Source: a phage. From it: a stretch of 64,000 nucleotides of DNA. The notes under the pieces are model-generated. The model searched no databases. It was not told the origin of the DNA and saw only the letters and a list, made by a program, of their open reading frames with translations. Below, one piece after another: positions 8,439 to 55,676 of the stretch. The first letter of the stretch is position 1. The number at the start of each line of letters is the position of its first letter. The stretch is from NCBI GenBank assembly GCA_012747475.1, contig GCA_012747475.1_3928.1. The stretch is one strand, 5' to 3'. Position numbers and translations under genes: made by a program.

Positions 8439-8530
8439 TTGACTCTTTGAACGTGGTTATCTAATATTTACATCAACGGGGAGGGAATGACCTTCCCCAC
8501 TAAATAAAATCCTAAACTGGAGATTCAAAA
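8439..8530 (+). promoter_or_regulatory. class A cassette: promoter + 5' leader stem-loop + SD
   Basis: TTGACT(8439)-17bp-TAATAT(8462); hairpin GGGGAGGGAATGACCTTCCCC; conserved AAACTGGAGATTC before ATG. Confidence 0.6.
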
Positions 8531-8719
8531 ATGGCATCAAGAAAAATTAAAGTTGGCGATGAGGTTAACATTAAGCACGAATACTCTTACAAAATGCTAA
8601 CTATACGCTCTTATAAGGTTTATCAGGTGGAAGCTATCCACAAAGATAATACTTTTTCCTTAAAAGGGTATAGCGAACGTTTCCCTGCTGAACTCTTTGA
8701 GAAATGGAGCGCGAAATAA
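8531..8719 (+). CDS. small hypothetical protein (62 aa)
   Basis: ORF track; ATG directly after class A cassette. Confidence 0.5.
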   Translation: MASRKIKVGDEVNIKHEYSYKMLTIRSYKVYQVEAIHKDNTFSLKGYSERFPAELFEKWSAK

Positions 8720-10487: not shown

Positions 10488-10578
10488 TTTTGGTTTTTAA
10501 AACAAGTAAATTACACATCAACGGGGAGGGAATGAGCTTCCCCACTAAGTAAAGTCCTTAAACTAGGAGATTCTGAAA
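10485..10578 (+). promoter_or_regulatory. class A cassette
   Basis: TTGATT-17bp-TAAATT(10508); hairpin GGGGAGGGAATGAGCTTCCCC. Confidence 0.55.
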
Positions 10579-10851
10579 ATGTATACTACTAACAACGGTC
10601 GCACTTTAAATGTCACACTACGTCACTATGTAGATGGTGTCATGCACTTTGAAGATTTACAAGCTGAGCAACATATCTTAGATTGGCAAGTCGCAGGACT
10701 CCAAAAAACTGCTACGGGATACGGTAAAAAGATTCCAACCAGTTGGAAAGTACACTACGAAGGACGTTTGCGCAGAATTTATCAAGATGTATGCAGTAAT
10801 AGCACATCAAGTTACATCATAGTAAAAGGTAAAAAACTGCATTTAGTGTAA
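10579..10851 (+). CDS. hypothetical protein
   Basis: ORF track. Confidence 0.5.
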   Translation: MYTTNNGRTLNVTLRHYVDGVMHFEDLQAEQHILDWQVAGLQKTATGYGKKIPTSWKVHYEGRLRRIYQDVCSNSTSSYIIVKGKKLHLV

Positions 10852-11348: not shown

Positions 11349-11440
11349 TTGACACTGGTTTTTAGATAGATTAAATTACACATCAACGGGGAGGCGATAA
11401 CATCCCCACTAAATAAAGTCCTAAACTGGAGATTCTAAAA
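11349..11440 (+). promoter_or_regulatory. class A cassette
   Basis: TTGACA(11349)-17bp-TAAATT(11372); hairpin GGGGAGGCGATAACATCCCC. Confidence 0.6.
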
Positions 11441-11644
11441 ATGGCTATTATTAACGGTTTAACCATTGAAACTACACACATCAAAGATATTAAAGTTGGT
11501 GATGTAGTCCTTTCCCACGGCGTAGAGAAAACTGTCACTGCAAAGGATATCAAAGAGGATTCTTTCATGGGTAGGACTCTCTTCGGTGATTCTTATTGCT
11601 TAGGGTATCTTGCAGTTTTAAAAGTTGTCAAAAATAACAAATAA
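11441..11644 (+). CDS. small hypothetical protein
   Basis: ORF track. Confidence 0.5.
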   Translation: MAIINGLTIETTHIKDIKVGDVVLSHGVEKTVTAKDIKEDSFMGRTLFGDSYCLGYLAVLKVVKNNK

Positions 11645-12339: not shown

Positions 12340-12573
12340 ATGCTAACAACCGTTTATCTCATCCTCTCAATTTGTAATGGCCATTCATGTGACTTTAAAG
12401 GGCTTGAAGAGTTTACAGGGAGTAAAGAAAATGCTATTCAAGTTTGCCAGATAGCAAGACAAGACTATCCCGCCAGTGATGATATACAATGTTACTTTAA
12501 GACAGAAGATGACGATGGAATCTATTTCGATAGTGTTGACGGTCAATATGAAATTATCATTGAAAAAGACTAG
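12340..12573 (+). CDS. small hypothetical protein
   Basis: ORF track. Confidence 0.45.
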   Translation: MLTTVYLILSICNGHSCDFKGLEEFTGSKENAIQVCQIARQDYPASDDIQCYFKTEDDDGIYFDSVDGQYEIIIEKD

Positions 12574-12665
12574 ACAAGCCTGATAAAAGTCTGTAAATTA
12601 TCAATCAACGGGGAGGGAATGACCTTCCCCACTAAGTAAAGTCCTTAAACTAGGAGATTCTAAAA
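12572..12665 (+). promoter_or_regulatory. class A cassette
   Basis: TAGACA-17bp-TAAATT(12594); hairpin GGGGAGGGAATGACCTTCCCC. Confidence 0.55.
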
Positions 12666-13007
12666 ATGGCTTATGTAACCGTAATTACCGATAAAGAGGA
12701 TTCATCTTGGTCAACTCAAGTAAGTGATAAGATGTCGCCTATGCAGTGCCTAAAATACTTTGAGCAGTGGAACAAAGGCGAGGATGTAAGCCCCTTTCAG
12801 GTAATGCAAATCATCCATACAGATAACGAAGGGAATAAAACGACACTGAATAGTGAGTACTATGCAAGCCGTTTTGAAACGAGAAGTAAAACAATGAAGC
12901 TTTTACGTGAATCCGGCTATTCTCACATTGCCGCGCTAATCTGGGATGACCTGCTGAAAAGCCAGCGTATCAGCTATGTAAAACCTGAAAAAATATTCAT
13001 CAGTTAA
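12666..13007 (+). CDS. hypothetical protein
   Basis: ORF track. Confidence 0.5.
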   Translation: MAYVTVITDKEDSSWSTQVSDKMSPMQCLKYFEQWNKGEDVSPFQVMQIIHTDNEGNKTTLNSEYYASRFETRSKTMKLLRESGYSHIAALIWDDLLKSQRISYVKPEKIFIS

Positions 13008-13136: not shown

Positions 13137-13229
13137 TTGCAATCAGTTATCAAAACAAGTAAATTACTCATCAACGGGGAGGCAATAACCTCCCTACTAA
13201 GTAAAGTCCTTAAACTAGGAGATTCTAAA
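13137..13229 (+). promoter_or_regulatory. class A cassette
   Basis: TTGCAA-17bp-TAAATT(13160); hairpin GGGGAGGCAATAACCTCCC. Confidence 0.55.
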
Positions 13230-13760
13230 ATGAACAAGTTCAAAGCTATCAACTATATTCGCTCAAATAGTGTTATGTCTAAGCCTGTTAAAGATACCTA
13301 CGAATTTCGTTGTAATGGGGTACACTTTGCAACCATTACCAAATCAGAAAACGGGGCTTATTACATTCATCGCCGTAATGTTTCTACTGTTGTAGTCTCT
13401 CACTTTATGCAAGCCGTAGCGGAGTTATTACCGTTATTCTTAGAGATTTACTTAGATGAGTGTAAAAACGTTCGCAACCACGTTAAAAGCCTTTTAAATG
13501 GCTATAAAATGGCTTATGAGCGTTCTATTAAGTCACTAAACAAGTTCTATAAAGCCCCTGAAAATACTGTATCAATAGCTTATGATGTAAGTGGTGAAAT
13601 GGTCAATCTCTCTAATGTAGAACAAATTAGCCTTTATGATTTACGTCCTAGTGGCTACTCTAAGACTCTCGGTGAAGGTTTATCCTTCAATATCAAGAAC
13701 TTAGAAAAAACTTTAAGAGATATTGAAAAAGATATTGACGAGACAATCAAAAATCTGTAA
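13230..13760 (+). CDS. hypothetical protein
   Basis: ATG 13230 after cassette; track start 13137 lies inside the cassette. Confidence 0.5.
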   Translation: MNKFKAINYIRSNSVMSKPVKDTYEFRCNGVHFATITKSENGAYYIHRRNVSTVVVSHFMQAVAELLPLFLEIYLDECKNVRNHVKSLLNGYKMAYERSIKSLNKFYKAPENTVSIAYDVSGEMVNLSNVEQISLYDLRPSGYSKTLGEGLSFNIKNLEKTLRDIEKDIDETIKNL

Positions 13761-13824
13761 ATTGTCAATCAACGGGGGATGACCTCCCCCACTAAGTAAA
13801 GTCCTTAAACTAGGAGTTATCAAG
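13735..13824 (+). promoter_or_regulatory. class A cassette (promoter overlaps 3' end of upstream gene)
   Basis: TTGACG(13735)-17bp-TAAATT(13758); hairpin GGGGGATGACCTCCCCC. Confidence 0.5.
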
Positions 13825-14088
13825 ATGGAAAACGTAGAATTAACCACACTATTGCAGATTGCAACTGACAAAGAAGACGTAGCGTTGTTTCACCGTATCG
13901 AAAGTGATTTGTTCAATGGTGAAATCATTAAAGAATCTTACGAAGTTGTCGGATTCAAAGATGGTAAAGCATTTGGCTTTTTTGACCTCGACAAAAGCAA
14001 AGCGGTTACAATGTACGATGTTCTATCTTGTGAAATTCTGACAAAATACAACGAAAAAAGGCTTGCAACCTACGCCAATATGCAGTAA
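13825..14088 (+). CDS. hypothetical protein
   Basis: ORF track. Confidence 0.5.
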   Translation: MENVELTTLLQIATDKEDVALFHRIESDLFNGEIIKESYEVVGFKDGKAFGFFDLDKSKAVTMYDVLSCEILTKYNEKRLATYANMQ

Positions 14089-14155
14089 ATTACTAATCAA
14101 CGGGGAGGGAATGACCTTCCCACTAAACAAAGTCCTAAACTGGAGAATCTAAATT
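14063..14155 (+). promoter_or_regulatory. class A cassette
   Basis: TTGCAA(14063)-17bp-TAAATT(14086); hairpin GGGGAGGGAATGACCTTCCC. Confidence 0.55.
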
Positions 14156-14404
14156 ATGTCAACTATCCGCGTAACTGTTAATGCTTATGGCTGCCACCAA
14201 CTTGATGCAAAATTCGATATCGGTGGAACAGATAACACCTTTGACCTTATCAAAATGCTGATTCAGCAGGTGATACCAGATTATAACCCTACTGATGACT
14301 TCTGGAAAGATGCCGTAAAAGAAGCCATAAACGAGGAATCTCACTACCATTATTGGGGTGACTTGATTGTCTCTCTATACTACAGCAAACAAGGCTACAA
14401 CTAA
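14156..14404 (+). CDS. hypothetical protein
   Basis: ORF track; last gene of small-gene array. Confidence 0.5.
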   Translation: MSTIRVTVNAYGCHQLDAKFDIGGTDNTFDLIKMLIQQVIPDYNPTDDFWKDAVKEAINEESHYHYWGDLIVSLYYSKQGYN

Positions 14405-14468
14405 TCGACGCAGCGGGGCTAAATAGCCCCAGATACCTTTACAGCCACTTAAATGGGGCTTTTTTACG
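14405..14468 (+). terminator. terminator at end of small-gene array
   Basis: GGGGCT-AAAT-AGCCCC hairpin, then GGGGCT followed by TTTTTTAC. Confidence 0.45.
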
Positions 14469-16024
14469 TCTATCGAATCCTTATACAACCCCTTTCCCTT
14501 TCCTTTCTAGAATCTTATCAGACCTTAAAAGCAATAACTCTATAGTCTACTCTATAGCCTTTTATCAAATCAACTTAAATATAAGCCCATAACCCGAAAG
14601 GGAAGGGCAACCATTAAAACGCTCTATAAAGCTCTATAACAGCCTTATCAACCTAACTTAAGCAATCATATTAACCCACTCTAAAAAGCCCTTTATAGAG
14701 CTTCCCAGAGCCTTAAAAGAATCTTATAAGGGTATAAGCTTTATTATCTCGTTAGCTATCTTGTGAACTACTAAAAAGGGCTTGTTAGTGTCTTAAAAGT
14801 ATGTTATAGGGGCTTTAAAGTTACTTCAAAGTTGCTTAAAAGTTACGTAAATGCTAGCCCCCTTAACATTTTCTTAACAATTTCTTAACAATCCCTACAT
14901 AGTTATGCTTGTTAGAGACTTGTTAGCCCCTTGTTAAATCTCTGTTAAGACCACGTAAAAGCCTTGTAAGAGTCTTTGACATAGCCTTAAAAGCTCCTGT
15001 AAAGCCCTATAAAGAGCTATCCATACAGTTGAGGGGTAGATACTAGGAAGAGGCTTAAAAGGGGCTATAAGGGGCTATAGAGAGCTTTTAAGAGGTATGT
15101 TTAGAGATTCACTAAGAGGGAAAGGGAACGATAAGAAAAGAGATAGTGACCATGTTAATAGCTTGTTAAAAAGATTAAACACTTGTTAGAAACTTGTTAA
15201 TTATCTTAACAAAATAACTCTTTAAAATTAACTTGTTAGCTCTTGTTAGTCATCTGTTAAGATTCTGTAAAGCCTATTCAGCACTTGTTAAGAGACTGTT
15301 ACAGCCTTGTTAGTTCTGTTAAGAATCTGTTAAGACCTTTGAAGAGTTGTTAAGAAGGTGTTAGAACTGTTAAGAGATTGTTAAGGATATTTTAAAATTT
15401 TGCAAAGTACTTGTAAGGGAGCTGTTAAGGGCTACCAAGCAGATATACATCTTCTACAGATATTTTTGAGTTCCTTCAAAGACCCTAAAAAATGACTTGA
15501 TAGTCCTATTTTATAAAAATTTTAAAATTCTGAATAATTACCTATACAGTCTTTTAAAAATACAGGTAGAAACAGGCTTATAAGATACCTTGTTAGTACC
15601 GTGTTAGACCTTGTGAGATAAGGTCTGTAAAGATATTCCTGTTAAGTTTGTTAAAACAGTCTATATAGAGGCTTAGTAATACCTAGTGAACACCTATAGA
15701 GAGTATCATAGCTAACCTAGAGATTAAGAGGTGTATAGGAGCTTCTAAGAGGGTGTAGAGGTATGGTTAAGGTGATTGTATAGGTTGTTAAGAAGGCTTG
15801 TTAGAAGAGTGTTTAGAAGGACTATACAGAGGGGCTATTAAGACCACTAGATAGTTACTAAGATACTATATAGTACTATATAACTATATAGAGAGTAAGA
15901 TTAAGGAGGTTGTTAAGAAGGATAGATATTTTATTCACATATGATGGTGACCCAGAGGTTGGGACAACCGATAAAATTTTATAAAAATTAAAAAGCCCCC
16001 GATTAAGGAGGCTCTTAAGATATT
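14469..16024. repeat. ORF-free repeat-dense region rich in CTNNNNAG words
   Basis: no ORF >=60 aa either strand; CTTATAAG, CTTTAAAG, CTATAAAG, CTATAGAG, CTTGTTAG, CTGTTAAG recur dozens of times. Confidence 0.75.
15150..15432 (+). repeat. helically phased array of ~20 TGTTA(A/G)G units
   Basis: TGTTA at 15165,15185,15196,15235,15244,15255,15286,15297,15308,15317,15328,15348,15359,15368,15379,15423; spacings 9, 11 or 20 bp. Confidence 0.75.
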
Positions 16025-16618
16025 TTAAATCAGTGTTTCCAGAACTGTTTTCAGGGATGACTTAGTTGTCTGATAAAAATGAGTGAATCCGTTGTTGTTA
16101 TCGAATATCTGCATCATAATGTCATCTCCCTTGATTGGATACACTCGGATATCATAGTGAAACCCGTTAAAGACAGCAGAACCATTACAGAACACACTAA
16201 AATCGTCCACTGAGATATACTCTTCATGTCCTGTGATTTTTATACAGACGCCTTTGCTCGGTCTCTTAGGGTTGATATCTTCCATCACAGACATACTCTG
16301 TCCACCAAGAGATACCATAGTGACCACTTTACGGTTCTTCTGTCTAAAGTACATTTTAACTTTCTGTAAAGTGTCTTCATAGAACGGATAAGACTTCTCT
16401 ACAAAGATTCCTTCAAGTGGCTCTTTACCATTTTCAACTTCTCTGGTATGTCGTACTGCAAAGATAATTTGTTGGAACCAGTCAAGATTTTCTTCGGAGA
16501 GTGCTTCACGAACATCACTCCAGTCAAGGACTAGGTAGTTGCCTTCAACTTCTTTTAAGTTATCTTTTTCCATATCTATCACACCGTTATCGTAAAACTT
16601 GGTAAGCTGGTACTGCAA
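16025..16618 (-). CDS. hypothetical protein
   Basis: ORF track; first gene of leftward block. Confidence 0.5.
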   Translation of the reverse strand: MQYQLTKFYDNGVIDMEKDNLKEVEGNYLVLDWSDVREALSEENLDWFQQIIFAVRHTREVENGKEPLEGIFVEKSYPFYEDTLQKVKMYFRQKNRKVVTMVSLGGQSMSVMEDINPKRPSKGVCIKITGHEEYISVDDFSVFCNGSAVFNGFHYDIRVYPIKGDDIMMQIFDNNNGFTHFYQTTKSSLKTVLETLI

Positions 16619-17072
16619 ACTTGTTGCTACTGTTTCTAATAAGGTCTTCTTCTGTTACTAAGAATGTAATCCCACATAAGTGGGTATAGTGGCTGTCATA
16701 CTCGAATATTTTAAGTAAGTATTTACCATCATGATAAACAGATTCTACTACACCTTTTGCAACAATCTTTCCAGTCTTGAAGTCTTTAAGAGGGTATGTA
16801 TTACCAACTTTAGGGACTGTTTTCACTTCAGGTTCTTTTAGCTTCTCACCAACTTCTACATCACCTAGTAAGTGAGAACTTTCAAACGCTACATGTTGCA
16901 TATAAGCTTCTGAACATTCCCAGATAAAACAATGTACAAGAACCTTAGCAGCATGTCTTGAGCAATTCAACTCATCACAGATTTCTTTGTACATTTCATC
17001 TTTAGTTGAATTAGTAAGTATTGCTTTTCGAACTGTTTCTTTAATTTTCATAAGCTCTCCGAATAACCCCAT
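16587..17072 (-). CDS. hypothetical protein
   Basis: ORF track. Confidence 0.5.
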   Translation of the reverse strand: MGLFGELMKIKETVRKAILTNSTKDEMYKEICDELNCSRHAAKVLVHCFIWECSEAYMQHVAFESSHLLGDVEVGEKLKEPEVKTVPKVGNTYPLKDFKTGKIVAKGVVESVYHDGKYLLKIFEYDSHYTHLCGITFLVTEEDLIRNSSNKFAVPAYQVLR

Positions 17073-26774: not shown

Positions 26775-26851
26775 CTCTGTTTAGCTCAGCTTGGTAGAGC
26801 GTTCCGTTTGGGGCGGTAAGGCCGGAGGTTCAAGTCCTCCAACAGAGACCA
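26775..26851 (+). tRNA. tRNA-Pro (anticodon UGG)
   Basis: hand-parsed cloverleaf; T arm GGAGG-TTCAAGT-CCTCC; CCA encoded. Confidence 0.65.
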
Positions 26852-26858
26852 AATTAAT

Positions 26859-26936
26859 GTTCCAGTAGACAAAATGGTAAAGTCACCACTCTTTCAAAGT
26901 GGATATTTGAGGGTTCAAATCCCTTCTGGAACGCCA
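26859..26936 (+). tRNA. tRNA-Glu (UUC)
   Basis: acceptor GTTCCAG/CTGGAAC; anticodon loop CTTTCAA; CCA encoded. Confidence 0.65.
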
Positions 26937-26942
26937 GTTTTG

Positions 26943-27016
26943 ACAGAAGACCAATTACAGCAAACTTAATCTTATTCATCTGAAGGTAAATCGGACAAAG
27001 AAGAGATTTGGTCTGG
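26943..27016 (+). repeat. structured spacer element, copy a
   Basis: 5' box ACAGAAGACCAATTACAGCAA, 3' box TTGGTCTGG; ends pair. Confidence 0.6.
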
Positions 27017-27027
27017 TCATTAAGAAT

Positions 27028-27104
27028 TGCGGGTATAGAGAAAGGGCGTCTCACATGTCTCATTAGCATGGTATCGGCAGGTTCGACTCCTGCACCCGCC
27101 TCCA
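27028..27104 (+). tRNA. tRNA with CAU anticodon (Met or Ile2), 1:72 mismatch
   Basis: T arm GCAGG-TTCGACT-CCTGC; anticodon loop CTCATTA; boundaries uncertain. Confidence 0.5.
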
Positions 27105-27109
27105 AATTT

Positions 27110-27174
27110 ACAGAAGACCGTTTACAGCAATATTTATTAAATTTTTAGCGGAAAAATTGAAAGATACGGTCTGG
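27110..27174 (+). repeat. structured spacer element, copy b
   Basis: ACAGAAGACCGTTTACAGCAA ... ACGGTCTGG. Confidence 0.6.
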
Positions 27175-27187
27175 TAATACTAAACAT

Positions 27188-27264
27188 GGTTAGGAAGCAC
27201 ATAAGGCATGTGCGGTCGCCTGTTAAGCGAATGGCACAGGGTTCGAATCCCTGACTAACCGCCA
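27188..27264 (+). tRNA. tRNA-Asn (GUU)
   Basis: T arm CAGGG-TTCGAAT-CCCTG; anticodon loop CTGTTAA; CCA encoded. Confidence 0.6.
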
Positions 27265-27333
27265 AATTTAGGAGAGAAGCGATTGCTCACCGATTTGTAA
27301 GGTGCAAGTCCTTAGCCTGAATAGAAATTAAAT

Positions 27334-27421
27334 GTGTCGTTATCCCGTAGATGGTAGCGGTGGGGACTGTAAATCCCTTGTCATTGAGACTCGGTAGGTT
27401 CGACTCCTACACGGCACACCA
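27334..27421 (+). tRNA. tRNA-Tyr (GUA), long variable arm
   Basis: acceptor GTGTCGT/ACGGCAC; loop CTGTAAA; 15-nt variable arm; CCA encoded. Confidence 0.65.
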
Positions 27422-27426
27422 ATAAA

Positions 27427-55640: not shown

Positions 55641-55647
55641 TCCCTTG

Positions 55648-55676
55648 TTGACTGATTGTTAAGATGGTGTTAATAT
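55648..55676 (+). promoter_or_regulatory. sigma70-type promoter with -10 in hairpin loop
   Basis: TTGACT-17bp-TAATAT; inverted repeat AAGATGGTG(55661)/CACCATCTT(55693). Confidence 0.5.

What the first reader, a model, noticed from the sequence alone, without database searches (positions are those of the whole stretch)
14469..16024. 1.6-kb ORF-free region with helically phased TGTTAAG array and CTNNNNAG palindromes
At a convergent gene junction there is no ORF of 60 aa or more on either strand for ~1.6 kb, exceptional in this otherwise gap-free genome. The region is built from short words that carry stop codons on both strands (CTTATAAG, CTTTAAAG, CTATAAAG, CTATAGAG, CTTGTTAG, CTGTTAAG). Within 15150-15432 about 20 same-orientation TGTTA(A/G)G units are spaced 9, 11 or 20 bp apart, i.e. 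on one face of the helix, as expected for iterons or a cooperative protein-binding array. Candidate functions: replication origin, packaging or partition-like site, or a regulatory sink.
Basis: seen in the sequence. Interest (0 to 1): 0.7.

Follow-up and report, generated by a model that had tools for sequence, protein, structure and literature searches.

The report
Phage genome ends with phased repeats
The gene-free 1.6 kb is where this Felix O1-type phage's linear chromosome begins and ends: about 580 bp of it is copied onto both ends of the packaged DNA, and the phased TGTTAAG array fills the right half of that segment and probably guides the packaging enzyme.

Summary
Window 14405-16024 is by far the largest coding-free stretch in the window. 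TGTTA occurs 30 times against about 2.6 expected. The 19 same-strand TGTWA units in 15150-15432 sit on one helix face (phase coherence 0.84 at 10.3 bp; 0 of 5000 random placements reach it).

The window is a Felixounavirus, a Felix O1-like myovirus. Three independently deposited relatives carry exact direct terminal repeats (DTRs) of 591-694 bp whose ends map to window 14857 and 15436. Two papers report PhageTerm DTRs of 613 and 581 bp for members of this genus. So the region is the chromosome terminus or concatemer junction: the DTR-equivalent (14857-15436) plus conserved non-coding flanks.

Both boundaries are abutted by outward-facing TGTTAAGGG units in inverted orientation. The array, its 10.3-bp phase and the boundary words persist in four Ounavirinae genera, including Erwinia phages that are no longer alignable. 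Core bases are better conserved than spacers.

The most likely function, by inference only, is recognition and assembly sites for terminase-driven cutting and duplication of the repeat, as at T7 ends. A replication origin is not excluded. This is a new member of a known kind, of moderate interest.

The parts
14410..14462 (+). Terminator-like hairpins (GGGGCT..AGCCCC, then AGCCCC..GGGGCTTTTTT) that close the rightward early-gene block.
   Evidence: Sequence read. The homologous site is annotated as a rho-independent terminator in AYO145A. The simple scan did not list it because the loop is too long.
14469..14856 (.). Left flank, which in virion DNA lies just inside the right-end repeat. It is C-rich and made of CTNNNNAG words (CTTAAAAG, CTATAAAG, CTCTATAG) with roughly 11-bp periodicity.
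   Evidence: Word counts. Periodicity at 11.0-11.1 bp. An 11-bp tandem array at 14813-14851. Identity to 9 relatives is 0.80-0.96. GC skew is -0.26 to -0.49 over 14375-14749 and nearer zero to the right of that.
14857..15436 (.). Segment equivalent to the direct terminal repeat, 580 bp, present once in this record as in a concatemer junction.
   Evidence: The exact terminal repeats of Ro111lw (613 bp), ZX4221 (591 bp) and NBSal004 (694 bp) map to 14857 and 15436. PhageTerm DTRs of 613 bp and 581 bp are reported in PMC6454146 and PMC8303462. Further records open at the same base.
14862..14893 (-). Three inverted units (CTTAACA, which is TGTTAAG on the minus strand) at 11-bp spacing, starting 5 nt inside the left boundary (TA|GCCCCCTTAACA).
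   Evidence: The boundary word is conserved in 21 relatives. Identity in this block is 0.94-0.96.
14908..14950 (+). Four direct (C)TTGTTA(G/A) units at 11-bp spacing. Unit orientation and GC skew switch at about 14900-14975.
14951..15149 (.). Central part of the repeat. It holds CTTAAAAG, CTATAAAG and GGGGCTATAAGG words, is G-rich on its right side, and forms imperfect inverted repeats with the left flank.
   Evidence: Families D1 and D2 and inverted pairs I3, I10 and I25. Skew.
15150..15432 (+). Helically phased array of 19 yTGTWArg units, all on the + strand, ending in TGTTAAGGGCTACC at the right boundary.
   Evidence: The same array and phase are found in 11 relatives from four genera and in 17 IMG/VR contigs. 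Core columns are 0.946 identical against 0.822 for spacer columns.
15437..16024 (.). Right flank, which in virion DNA lies just inside the left-end repeat. It holds the invariant AAGCAGATATAC at 15437-15448, an AT-rich stretch around 15500-15560, further TGTTA pairs (15591/15602, 15640/15649, 15786/15799, 15911), and ACTATATAG tandem copies at 15864-15892.
   Evidence: The AAGCAGATATA word is present in all 12 genomes compared, including the Erwinia phage. GC is 0.27-0.28. Tandem copies. Identity to relatives is 0.79-0.98.
15991..16016 (-). Intrinsic terminator that closes the leftward gene block.
   Evidence: A 10-pair stem followed by a T-run. The site is annotated as a terminator in AYO145A and Moogle.

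Best explanation
The 1.6-kb gap is the terminal region of a non-permuted, short-direct-terminal-repeat chromosome, drawn here as a concatemer junction because the record is opened at rIIA.

Shown for close relatives and transferred by 90-95% identity: packaged DNA starts at window 14857 (GCCCCCTTAACA...) and ends at 15436 (...TGTTAAGGGCTACC). The 580 bp between those points is therefore present at both ends of the virion DNA.

Shown here: each boundary is abutted by TGTTAAGGG units at 11-bp spacing that face outward, in inverted orientation. The right half of the repeat is a 280-bp array of 19 units on one helix face. These features, and the word AAGCAGATATAC just outside the repeat, are conserved across four genera.

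Inferred: the units are binding sites for the packaging machinery, either a terminase recognition subunit or an accessory DNA-binding protein that oligomerises along or wraps one face of the DNA. The inverted terminal units would position cuts or strand-specific nicks 5-7 nt beyond the last unit at both boundaries. Strand-displacement synthesis would then duplicate the repeat, as proposed for T7. The flanking CTNNNNAG arrays would play the role of the T7 SRL/SRR arrays.

My confidence that this is the terminal-repeat region is about 0.9. My confidence that the array serves end formation and packaging is about 0.5.
For: Identity: the window is a Felixounavirus. rIIA and rIIB lie at the window start.

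Termini: exact terminal repeats in three independent records share the same first and last bases. PhageTerm reports come from two papers plus an sDTR call for Erwinia relatives. At least five further records open at the same boundary. TerL is 98.5-99.8% identical to that of those phages.

Geometry: the two ends of the repeat form a 32-nt, 72% complementary inverted repeat (I5). The array ends at the right boundary.

Selection: the phase of 10.3-10.45 bp and coherence of 0.77-0.91 are retained in all 11 relatives compared. That includes Kolesnikvirus SunLIRen, where TerL is 69% identical and the DNA is not alignable. Core columns are more conserved than spacers. The non-coding DNA is about 80% identical to Moogle, while the adjacent protein is only 50% identical.

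Repeat length varies from 569 to 694 bp with unchanged boundary words, so the cuts are set by sequence and not by distance.

T7 comparison: T7 ends read here show the same kind of design, a 160-bp repeat with 12 CCTAAAG-type units beside it.

Alternatives with no support: no Rfam family, no promoter excess, no tRNA and no DnaA-box excess.
Against: No reads or virion DNA of this particular phage were available, so its own ends are inferred by homology.

Nothing shows which protein binds the units. No small terminase subunit could be recognised.

The cut lies 5 nt beyond the last unit on the left and 7 nt beyond it on the right, so the symmetry is imperfect.

The large array sits on only one side of the repeat, and most of the conserved 1.6 kb lies outside the repeat, so other functions may coexist.

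A local GC-skew minimum near 14900-14975 and an AT-rich stretch at 15500-15560 would also fit an origin.

The terminase gene is 17 kb away.
Confidence: 0.6

Rival explanations
1. The array is a replication origin. The phased units would be iteron-like sites for an initiator that melts the neighbouring AT-rich DNA. This could coexist with the terminal repeat, since T7 has secondary origins next to its ends.
For: The repeats are direct and phased. An AT-rich stretch of 27-28% GC lies at 15425-15650, just outside the repeat. A local cumulative GC-skew minimum falls at about 14900-14975. The whole 1.6 kb is conserved, which is far more than the cut sites alone.
Against: The units have a 7-bp core at 9-11-bp spacing, unlike 17-22-bp iterons (established knowledge). 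There is no DnaA-box excess: 17 found against 20.8 expected in the window, with one 1-mismatch site in the region. No initiator-like gene flanks the region; the neighbours are unknown-function PHROGs. Window-scale skew follows gene orientation. The array's ends coincide with the packaging cuts.
Confidence: 0.15
2. The array is a landing pad for a non-terminase architectural or regulatory protein, of phage or host origin. Examples are a winged-helix or ribbon-helix-helix protein that coats the chromosome ends to protect them from exonucleases, controls DNA ejection (as at the T5 injection-stop region), silences read-through transcription at the convergent junction, or titrates a regulator.
For: One-face phasing at 10.3-11 bp is typical of tandem head-to-tail binders such as OmpR/PhoB-type regulators and ParR on parC (recalled knowledge, not tested here). 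The repeat lies at both virion ends. Terminators on both sides show that transcription converges here. A three-unit mini-array overlaps a promoter-like site at 55646-55674.
Against: No such protein was identified. This reading does not explain why outward-facing units abut both cut sites, nor why the boundary words are the best-conserved blocks. No partition genes were found, and no plasmid or prophage copy of the region exists.
Confidence: 0.17
3. The region encodes non-coding RNA(s) or very small proteins, and the repeats are incidental.
For: Some depositors annotate 35-53-aa hypothetical proteins here. The region is long and conserved.
Against: No Rfam match approaches its threshold; the best E-value is 0.2. 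Promoter-like sites are not above shuffles, at 9 against 6.4 +/- 2.7. Stop triplets are enriched on both strands. Conservation is concentrated on the repeat cores and not on any reading frame.
Confidence: 0.04

Closest known systems
T7/T3 chromosome ends: 160-bp terminal repeat with SRL/SRR heptamer arrays and concatemer-junction packaging signals
   Same: Both have a short, non-permuted direct terminal repeat in a non-coding stretch. Both have arrays of roughly 7-bp A/T-rich words (T7 CCTAAAG, CTATAG, CTTTAAAA) beside and inside the repeat. These were read directly from T7. In both phages the repeat must be duplicated from a single copy in the concatemer.
   Different: T7 has 12 SRL units at a 13-bp period, which is not helical (coherence 0.16-0.19 at 10.3-10.5 bp), and they lie outside the repeat. 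Here the main array lies inside the repeat, is phased at 10.3 bp, and inverted copies abut both cuts. The repeat is 3.6 times longer. The host virus is a myovirus with an unrelated gene set. No phage RNA-polymerase promoters flank the ends. No sequence homology is claimed.
P1 pac, SPP1 pacL/pacR and lambda cosB (clusters of short repeated terminase-binding words around a cut site)
   Same: Several copies of a short word, in two clusters of opposite or defined orientation near the cleavage point, recruit the recognition subunit (recalled knowledge).
   Different: Those phages use headful or cohesive-end packaging with 3-7 sites. This phage has fixed ends at both boundaries, a direct terminal repeat, and about 25 units. 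Headful and cos membership are excluded by the exact terminal repeats in relatives.
Plasmid R1 parC-ParR and OmpR/PhoB-type tandem sites
   Same: Direct repeats at a 10-11-bp period are bound cooperatively on one DNA face (recalled knowledge). The left-end words CTTAACATTTT resemble OmpR half-sites. This is a lead, not a test.
   Different: No partition operon or response regulator is nearby. The virus is lytic, and no plasmid or chromosomal copies of the region exist.
T5 terminal-repeat non-coding 'injection stop' region
   Same: It is a large gene-free stretch, rich in repeats and palindromes, within or next to a terminal repeat (recalled knowledge).
   Different: The T5 repeat is about 10 kb and carries genes. 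Two-step DNA transfer is not known for Felix O1-like phages.

Membership tests
Short direct-terminal-repeat (T7-type, non-permuted) chromosome terminus | The same sequence is present at both ends of virion DNA, with unique ends. | tested here: met
   Met for close relatives. Exact repeats of 613, 591 and 694 bp lie at both record ends. For this phage itself the feature is inferred by 90-95% identity, because no reads were available.
Short direct-terminal-repeat (T7-type, non-permuted) chromosome terminus | The boundaries are defined by sequence and conserved among relatives. | tested here: met
   TA|GCCCCCTT(A/T)ACA and TGTTAAGGGCTACC|AAGCAGATATA are found in 21 genomes or contigs even though repeat lengths range from 569 to 694 bp.
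Short direct-terminal-repeat (T7-type, non-permuted) chromosome terminus | The large terminase belongs to a lineage that makes such ends. | tested here: met
   TerL (32575-34191) is 98.5-99.8% identical to that of H12, pEP20 and other phages whose records open at these ends. It is 69% identical to Erwinia relatives that PhageTerm calls sDTR.
T7 SRL/SRR-type short-repeat arrays | Arrays of roughly 7-bp words lie immediately beside the terminal repeat. | tested here: met
   The left flank has 11-bp arrays up to 14856. The right flank has TGTTA pairs and ACTATATAG copies.
T7 SRL/SRR-type short-repeat arrays | The unit sequence is CCTAAAG, the period is about 13 bp, and the arrays lie outside the repeat. 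| tested here: not met
   The units here are yTGTTArg and CTNNNNAG, the period is 10.3-11 bp, and the main array lies inside the repeat. The region works like the T7 arrays but is not a homologous member.
Iteron-type replication origin | Direct repeats of 17-22 bp bound by an adjacent-encoded initiator, with DnaA boxes and an AT-rich unwinding element. | tested here: inconclusive
   Unit size and spacing do not fit. DnaA boxes are not enriched. No recognisable initiator lies next door. An AT-rich stretch is present. Origin activity itself cannot be tested with these tools.
Headful pac site or cohesive-end cos site | Permuted or terminally redundant ends of variable position (pac), or single-stranded cohesive ends without a repeat (cos). 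| tested here: not met
   Exact repeats with fixed boundaries are found in three independent records, and PhageTerm classes them as DTR.
Plasmid-type partition centromere (parC/parS) | The repeat array lies next to a parA/parM-parB/parR operon on a replicon that is maintained. | tested here: not met
   The neighbouring genes are unknown-function phage families. No copy of the region exists in plasmids or E. coli genomes.
Described non-coding RNA family (Rfam 15) | A match at or above the family gathering score. | tested here: not met
   The best matches score 22-25 bits against thresholds of 55-77, with E-values above 0.2.

The most novel reading that the evidence does not exclude
The same heptamer, placed in inverted orientation at the two boundaries and backed by a 26-turn, one-face array, forms a sequence-encoded programme. 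A ring-shaped or filament-forming recognition protein would wrap the array and direct strand-specific nicks 580 bp apart on opposite strands. That would explain mechanistically how a short terminal repeat is duplicated from one copy per concatemer junction, a step that is still unresolved even for T7. The terminal inverted units would also make both virion ends look alike to an end-binding factor. The array would then be a compact, portable packaging signal for Felix O1-type phages, which are widely used in Salmonella and E. coli biocontrol.
Probability: 0.3. Interest if true: 0.6.

Novelty: new member of a known kind. Interest (0 to 1): 0.4.

Why it matters
Felix O1-like phages are classic typing phages and current biocontrol phages, yet most database records are opened at rIIA and leave this 1.6 kb unexplained or annotate spurious small proteins in it.

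Recognising it as the chromosome terminus has several practical uses:
- It gives the correct physical map.
- It explains the largest non-coding block of the genome.
- It supplies candidate packaging signals for engineering, such as transducing particles or synthetic genome rebooting.
- It offers a second, experimentally tractable system beside T7 for asking how short terminal repeats are recognised and duplicated.

The phase-locked array, conserved across genera while its surroundings diverge, is a clean target for mutagenesis and for identifying the unknown recognition protein.

Tried and rejected
- Rfam scan of 14200-16200 at a permissive threshold gave only two chance-level matches.
- The sigma-70 promoter scan was not above shuffles, and no site inside the region matched better than 9 of 12.
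- There are no tRNA or tmRNA genes in the region.
- DnaA boxes are not enriched.
- I tried to read Kolesnikvirus ends from FIfi106, which is said to be rearranged by PhageTerm. The record starts inside coding-like sequence with a 121-nt end overlap, so it was uninformative. I used the syntenic gap of SunLIRen instead.
- The 127-bp 'repeat_region' of PC79-13 does not coincide with the conserved boundaries and is probably an assembly overlap.
- A boundary-pattern scan of IMG/VR found 17 Ounavirinae contigs and 8 chance hits with no array. Nothing was found outside the subfamily.
- No copy of the region exists in 5,426 E. coli genomes or in PLSDB plasmids, so there is no evidence for satellites that mimic the site.
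- A small terminase was looked for beside TerL with PHROGs and Pfam. Only DUF7217, DUF7338 and a 66-aa unknown protein turned up.
- The Felix O1 genome paper, the PhageMaP Bas63 study and a transcriptome search gave no description of this region.
- A-tract-type (WWW) phasing is not significant in the main array, so intrinsic curvature alone does not explain it.
- Two scripts timed out and one literature query was malformed.

Full report
**What is there**

Reading 14000-16600 and listing ORFs confirms a convergent junction. The last + strand gene ends at 14404 and the first - strand gene ends at 16025. Nothing longer than 37 aa lies between them. A 1289-nt stretch (14590-15878) has no stop-free run of 60 codons in any frame. 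The next largest such gap in the window is 416 nt, inside the cluster of 18 tRNA genes. Stop triplets and CTNNNNAG words are enriched, at 0.086 against 0.062 and 39.5 against 9.8 per kb.

**Is the array more than chance?**

- TGTTA occurs 30 times in the region, against 2.6 +/- 1.6 (maximum 8) in Markov simulations. It is strongly strand-biased, with 30 copies on + and 5 on -.
- The dimer TGTTAAGN4TGTTAAG with up to 2 mismatches occurs 17 times in the window against 1.3 expected. Thirteen of those lie in 14862-15429.
- In 15150-15432 there are 19 TGTWA units, of which only 8 are the strict heptamer. Most spacings are 9, 10, 11 or 20, with single gaps of 33 and 39.
- Their positions have a phase coherence of 0.84 at a 10.3-bp period over about 26 helical turns. 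None of 5000 random placements reaches this.
- An 11-bp periodicity also runs through the left flank and the left part of the repeat. Three coding control stretches show none.
- The unit consensus is y-T-G-T-T-A-r-g.

**What the window is**

The region matches 257 phage records at up to 94.7% identity. Nearly all are Felixounavirus, including Felix O1 itself at 93.2%. The window starts at rIIA and rIIB, which is the conventional opening point of Felix O1 records. All inspected relatives leave the homologous stretch without genes, apart from some dubious small ORFs, and some annotate 'repeat_region' or flanking terminators.

**The key result**

Several records begin or end inside the region, at the base homologous to window 14857 or 15436. 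In three independently deposited genomes the first and last 613 bp (Ro111lw), 591 bp (ZX4221) and 694 bp (NBSal004) are 100% identical. All three start GCCCCCTTAACATTTTCTTAACAATTTCTTAACAA and end TGTTAAGGGCTACC, and they map to window 14857-15436.

The literature agrees:
- Ro111lw has a PhageTerm DTR of 613 bp, described as T7-like (PMC6454146).
- Pr103Blw has a DTR of 581 bp (PMC8303462).
- H12 is reported to have DTRs (PMC11737134).
- Erwinia Felix O1-like phages are called short DTR (PMC11984208).
- The original Felix O1 paper only inferred 'short terminal repeats' from genome size and did not discuss this region.

So the ORF-free block is the chromosome terminus drawn as a concatemer junction. 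It consists of a left flank (14405-14856), the DTR-equivalent (14857-15436) and a right flank (15437-16024).

**Anatomy of the ends**

At the left boundary (TA|GCCCCCTTAACA) three inverted units follow at 11-bp spacing (14862-14893). Orientation and GC skew then flip near 14900-14975, and four direct units follow at 14908-14950. At the right boundary the array ends ...CTTGTAAGGGAGCTGTTAAGGGCTACC|AAGCAGATATAC.

Read outward, both ends are therefore TGTTAAG units at 11-bp spacing, ending in TGTTAAGGG. The end lies 5 nt (left) or 7 nt (right) beyond the last heptamer. The tool finds the two ends as a 32-nt, 72% complementary inverted repeat (I5).

**Conservation**

I compared 11 relatives from four genera: Felixounavirus, Suspvirus, Mooglevirus and Kolesnikvirus.
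- All keep an array of 11-19 units in the last 300 bp of the repeat, with coherence 0.77-0.91 at 10.30-10.45 bp.
- Seventeen IMG/VR contigs show the same.
- The Erwinia phage SunLIRen has a syntenic 1.4-kb gene-free gap (L019 16280-17696). Its TerL is 69% identical and its DNA is not alignable by BLAST. It still has TGTTAAG arrays, the TTTTGCAAAG...AAGCAGATATAC right boundary and a GCCACTTTTACA-type left boundary. Its left flank uses a different word, CTTCTAAG.
- Within the alignable genera, core columns are more conserved than spacer columns: 0.946 against 0.822 in the main array, and 0.936 against 0.826 in the left part. The boundary blocks are among the best conserved, at 0.94-0.96.
- The non-coding DNA is about 80% identical to Moogle, where the adjacent protein is only 50% identical.
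- Repeat length varies from 569 to 694 bp with unchanged boundary words. The differences cluster near multiples of 10.5-11 bp, which suggests gain and loss of whole units. This point is suggestive only.

**How it most likely works**

The shown steps are the position of the ends (in relatives), the inverted terminal units, the one-face phasing, and purifying selection on the cores.

The inferred steps are as follows. The units are binding sites for the packaging apparatus. A recognition protein assembles cooperatively on one face of about 280 bp. The terminal units position cleavage or nicking at both boundaries. The single junction copy is then duplicated by strand-displacement synthesis, as in models for T7.

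I could not identify the binder. TerL (32575-34191) and portal lie 17 kb away, and no small terminase is recognisable. WWW phasing is not significant in the main array, so protein sites rather than A-tract curvature explain the phase.

**Rivals**

- A replication origin cannot be excluded. There is an AT-rich stretch and a local skew minimum, and the conserved block is much longer than the cut sites. However, the unit architecture is not iteron-like, DnaA boxes are not enriched, no initiator gene is adjacent, and window-scale skew follows gene orientation.
- A non-terminase architectural or regulatory binder, for end protection, ejection control or a silencing sink, remains possible.
- A non-coding RNA or small ORFs are unlikely.

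**Comparison with the known**

I read the T7 ends directly. They consist of a 160-bp repeat carrying three CCTAAAG copies, followed by 12 CCTAAAG-type units. Related words (CTATAG, CCTTTAAAA) lie before the right repeat. This is the same kind of design. It differs in that the T7 period is 13 bp with no helical phase (coherence 0.16-0.19 at 10.3-10.5 bp) and the arrays lie outside the repeat.

Resemblances to P1 pac, SPP1 pac, lambda cosB, R1 parC and OmpR/PhoB sites come from memory and are leads only. Headful and cos packaging are excluded by the exact repeats.

**Novelty and verdict**

The terminal repeat of this genus is already on record in a few genome notes and GenBank entries. In the literature I could search I found no description of the phased array, the inverted terminal units, or their conservation across the subfamily. 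I therefore rate this a new member of a known kind, namely short-DTR termini with short-repeat arrays. It is of moderate interest, mainly as a tractable handle on how such ends are made and as a correction to the annotation.

Noticed in passing
window ~8472-8540, 10499-10581, 11372-11451, 12559-12670, 13158-13232, 13722-13827, 14084-14154 (+ strand): The rightward early-gene block carries at least seven copies of a roughly 70-100-nt intergenic cassette. Each copy has a TTGACA-type box, TAAATTAC, CATCAAC, a conserved hairpin GGGGAGGGAATGACCTTCCCC, then ACTAAATAAAGTCCTAAACTGGAGA (Shine-Dalgarno) and ATG. This looks like a shared promoter plus structured 5' leader. Part of it matches the 39-bp repeat listed in the Felix O1 genome paper.
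   Followed up: partly
window 55646-55674: A mini-array of three TGTTAAG-like units at 11-bp spacing lies in the 80-nt gap after the 851-aa ORF. It overlaps a TTGACT-17 nt-TAATAT promoter-like site. It is the only intergenic phased cluster of the unit outside the terminal region; the one other phased pair, at 31670-31687, lies inside a gene.
   Followed up: no
GU169904.1 (Staphylococcus phage SA1) 135352-137102: A record labelled as a Staphylococcus phage contains this Felix O1-type terminal region at 92% identity. The record is probably chimeric or contaminated.
   Followed up: no
L017/L018 (OR284297 FIfi106) and L009/L010 (OR687644 PC79-13): The 121-127-nt identical ends of these records do not fall at the conserved boundary words. 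In FIfi106 they lie in coding-like sequence. They look like assembly overlaps and not true terminal repeats.
   Followed up: partly
L019 (SunLIRen) 16330-16730: In the Erwinia genus the left flank is built from CTTCTAAG/CTTCTAAA words instead of CTTAAAAG/CTATAAAG, while TGTTAAG is kept. The flank word and the repeat word therefore seem to evolve independently, which hints at two different binding partners.
   Followed up: no
window 30224-32568: No small terminase is recognisable upstream of TerL. The neighbours are DUF7338 (membrane-like), DUF7217 (helical, 265 aa) and a conserved 66-aa protein of unknown function, phrog_4397.
   Followed up: partly
window 14405-16024 versus L001-L046: DTR-equivalent lengths in 21 relatives are 569, 570, 579, 580, 582, 591, 601, 613, 633, 638, 658 and 694 bp. 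Most differences are close to multiples of 10.5-11 bp, which suggests slippage by whole units or selection for helical register between the two ends.
   Followed up: partly
window 26775-30204: A cluster of 18 tRNA genes accounts for the other ORF-poor stretches of the window.
   Followed up: yes
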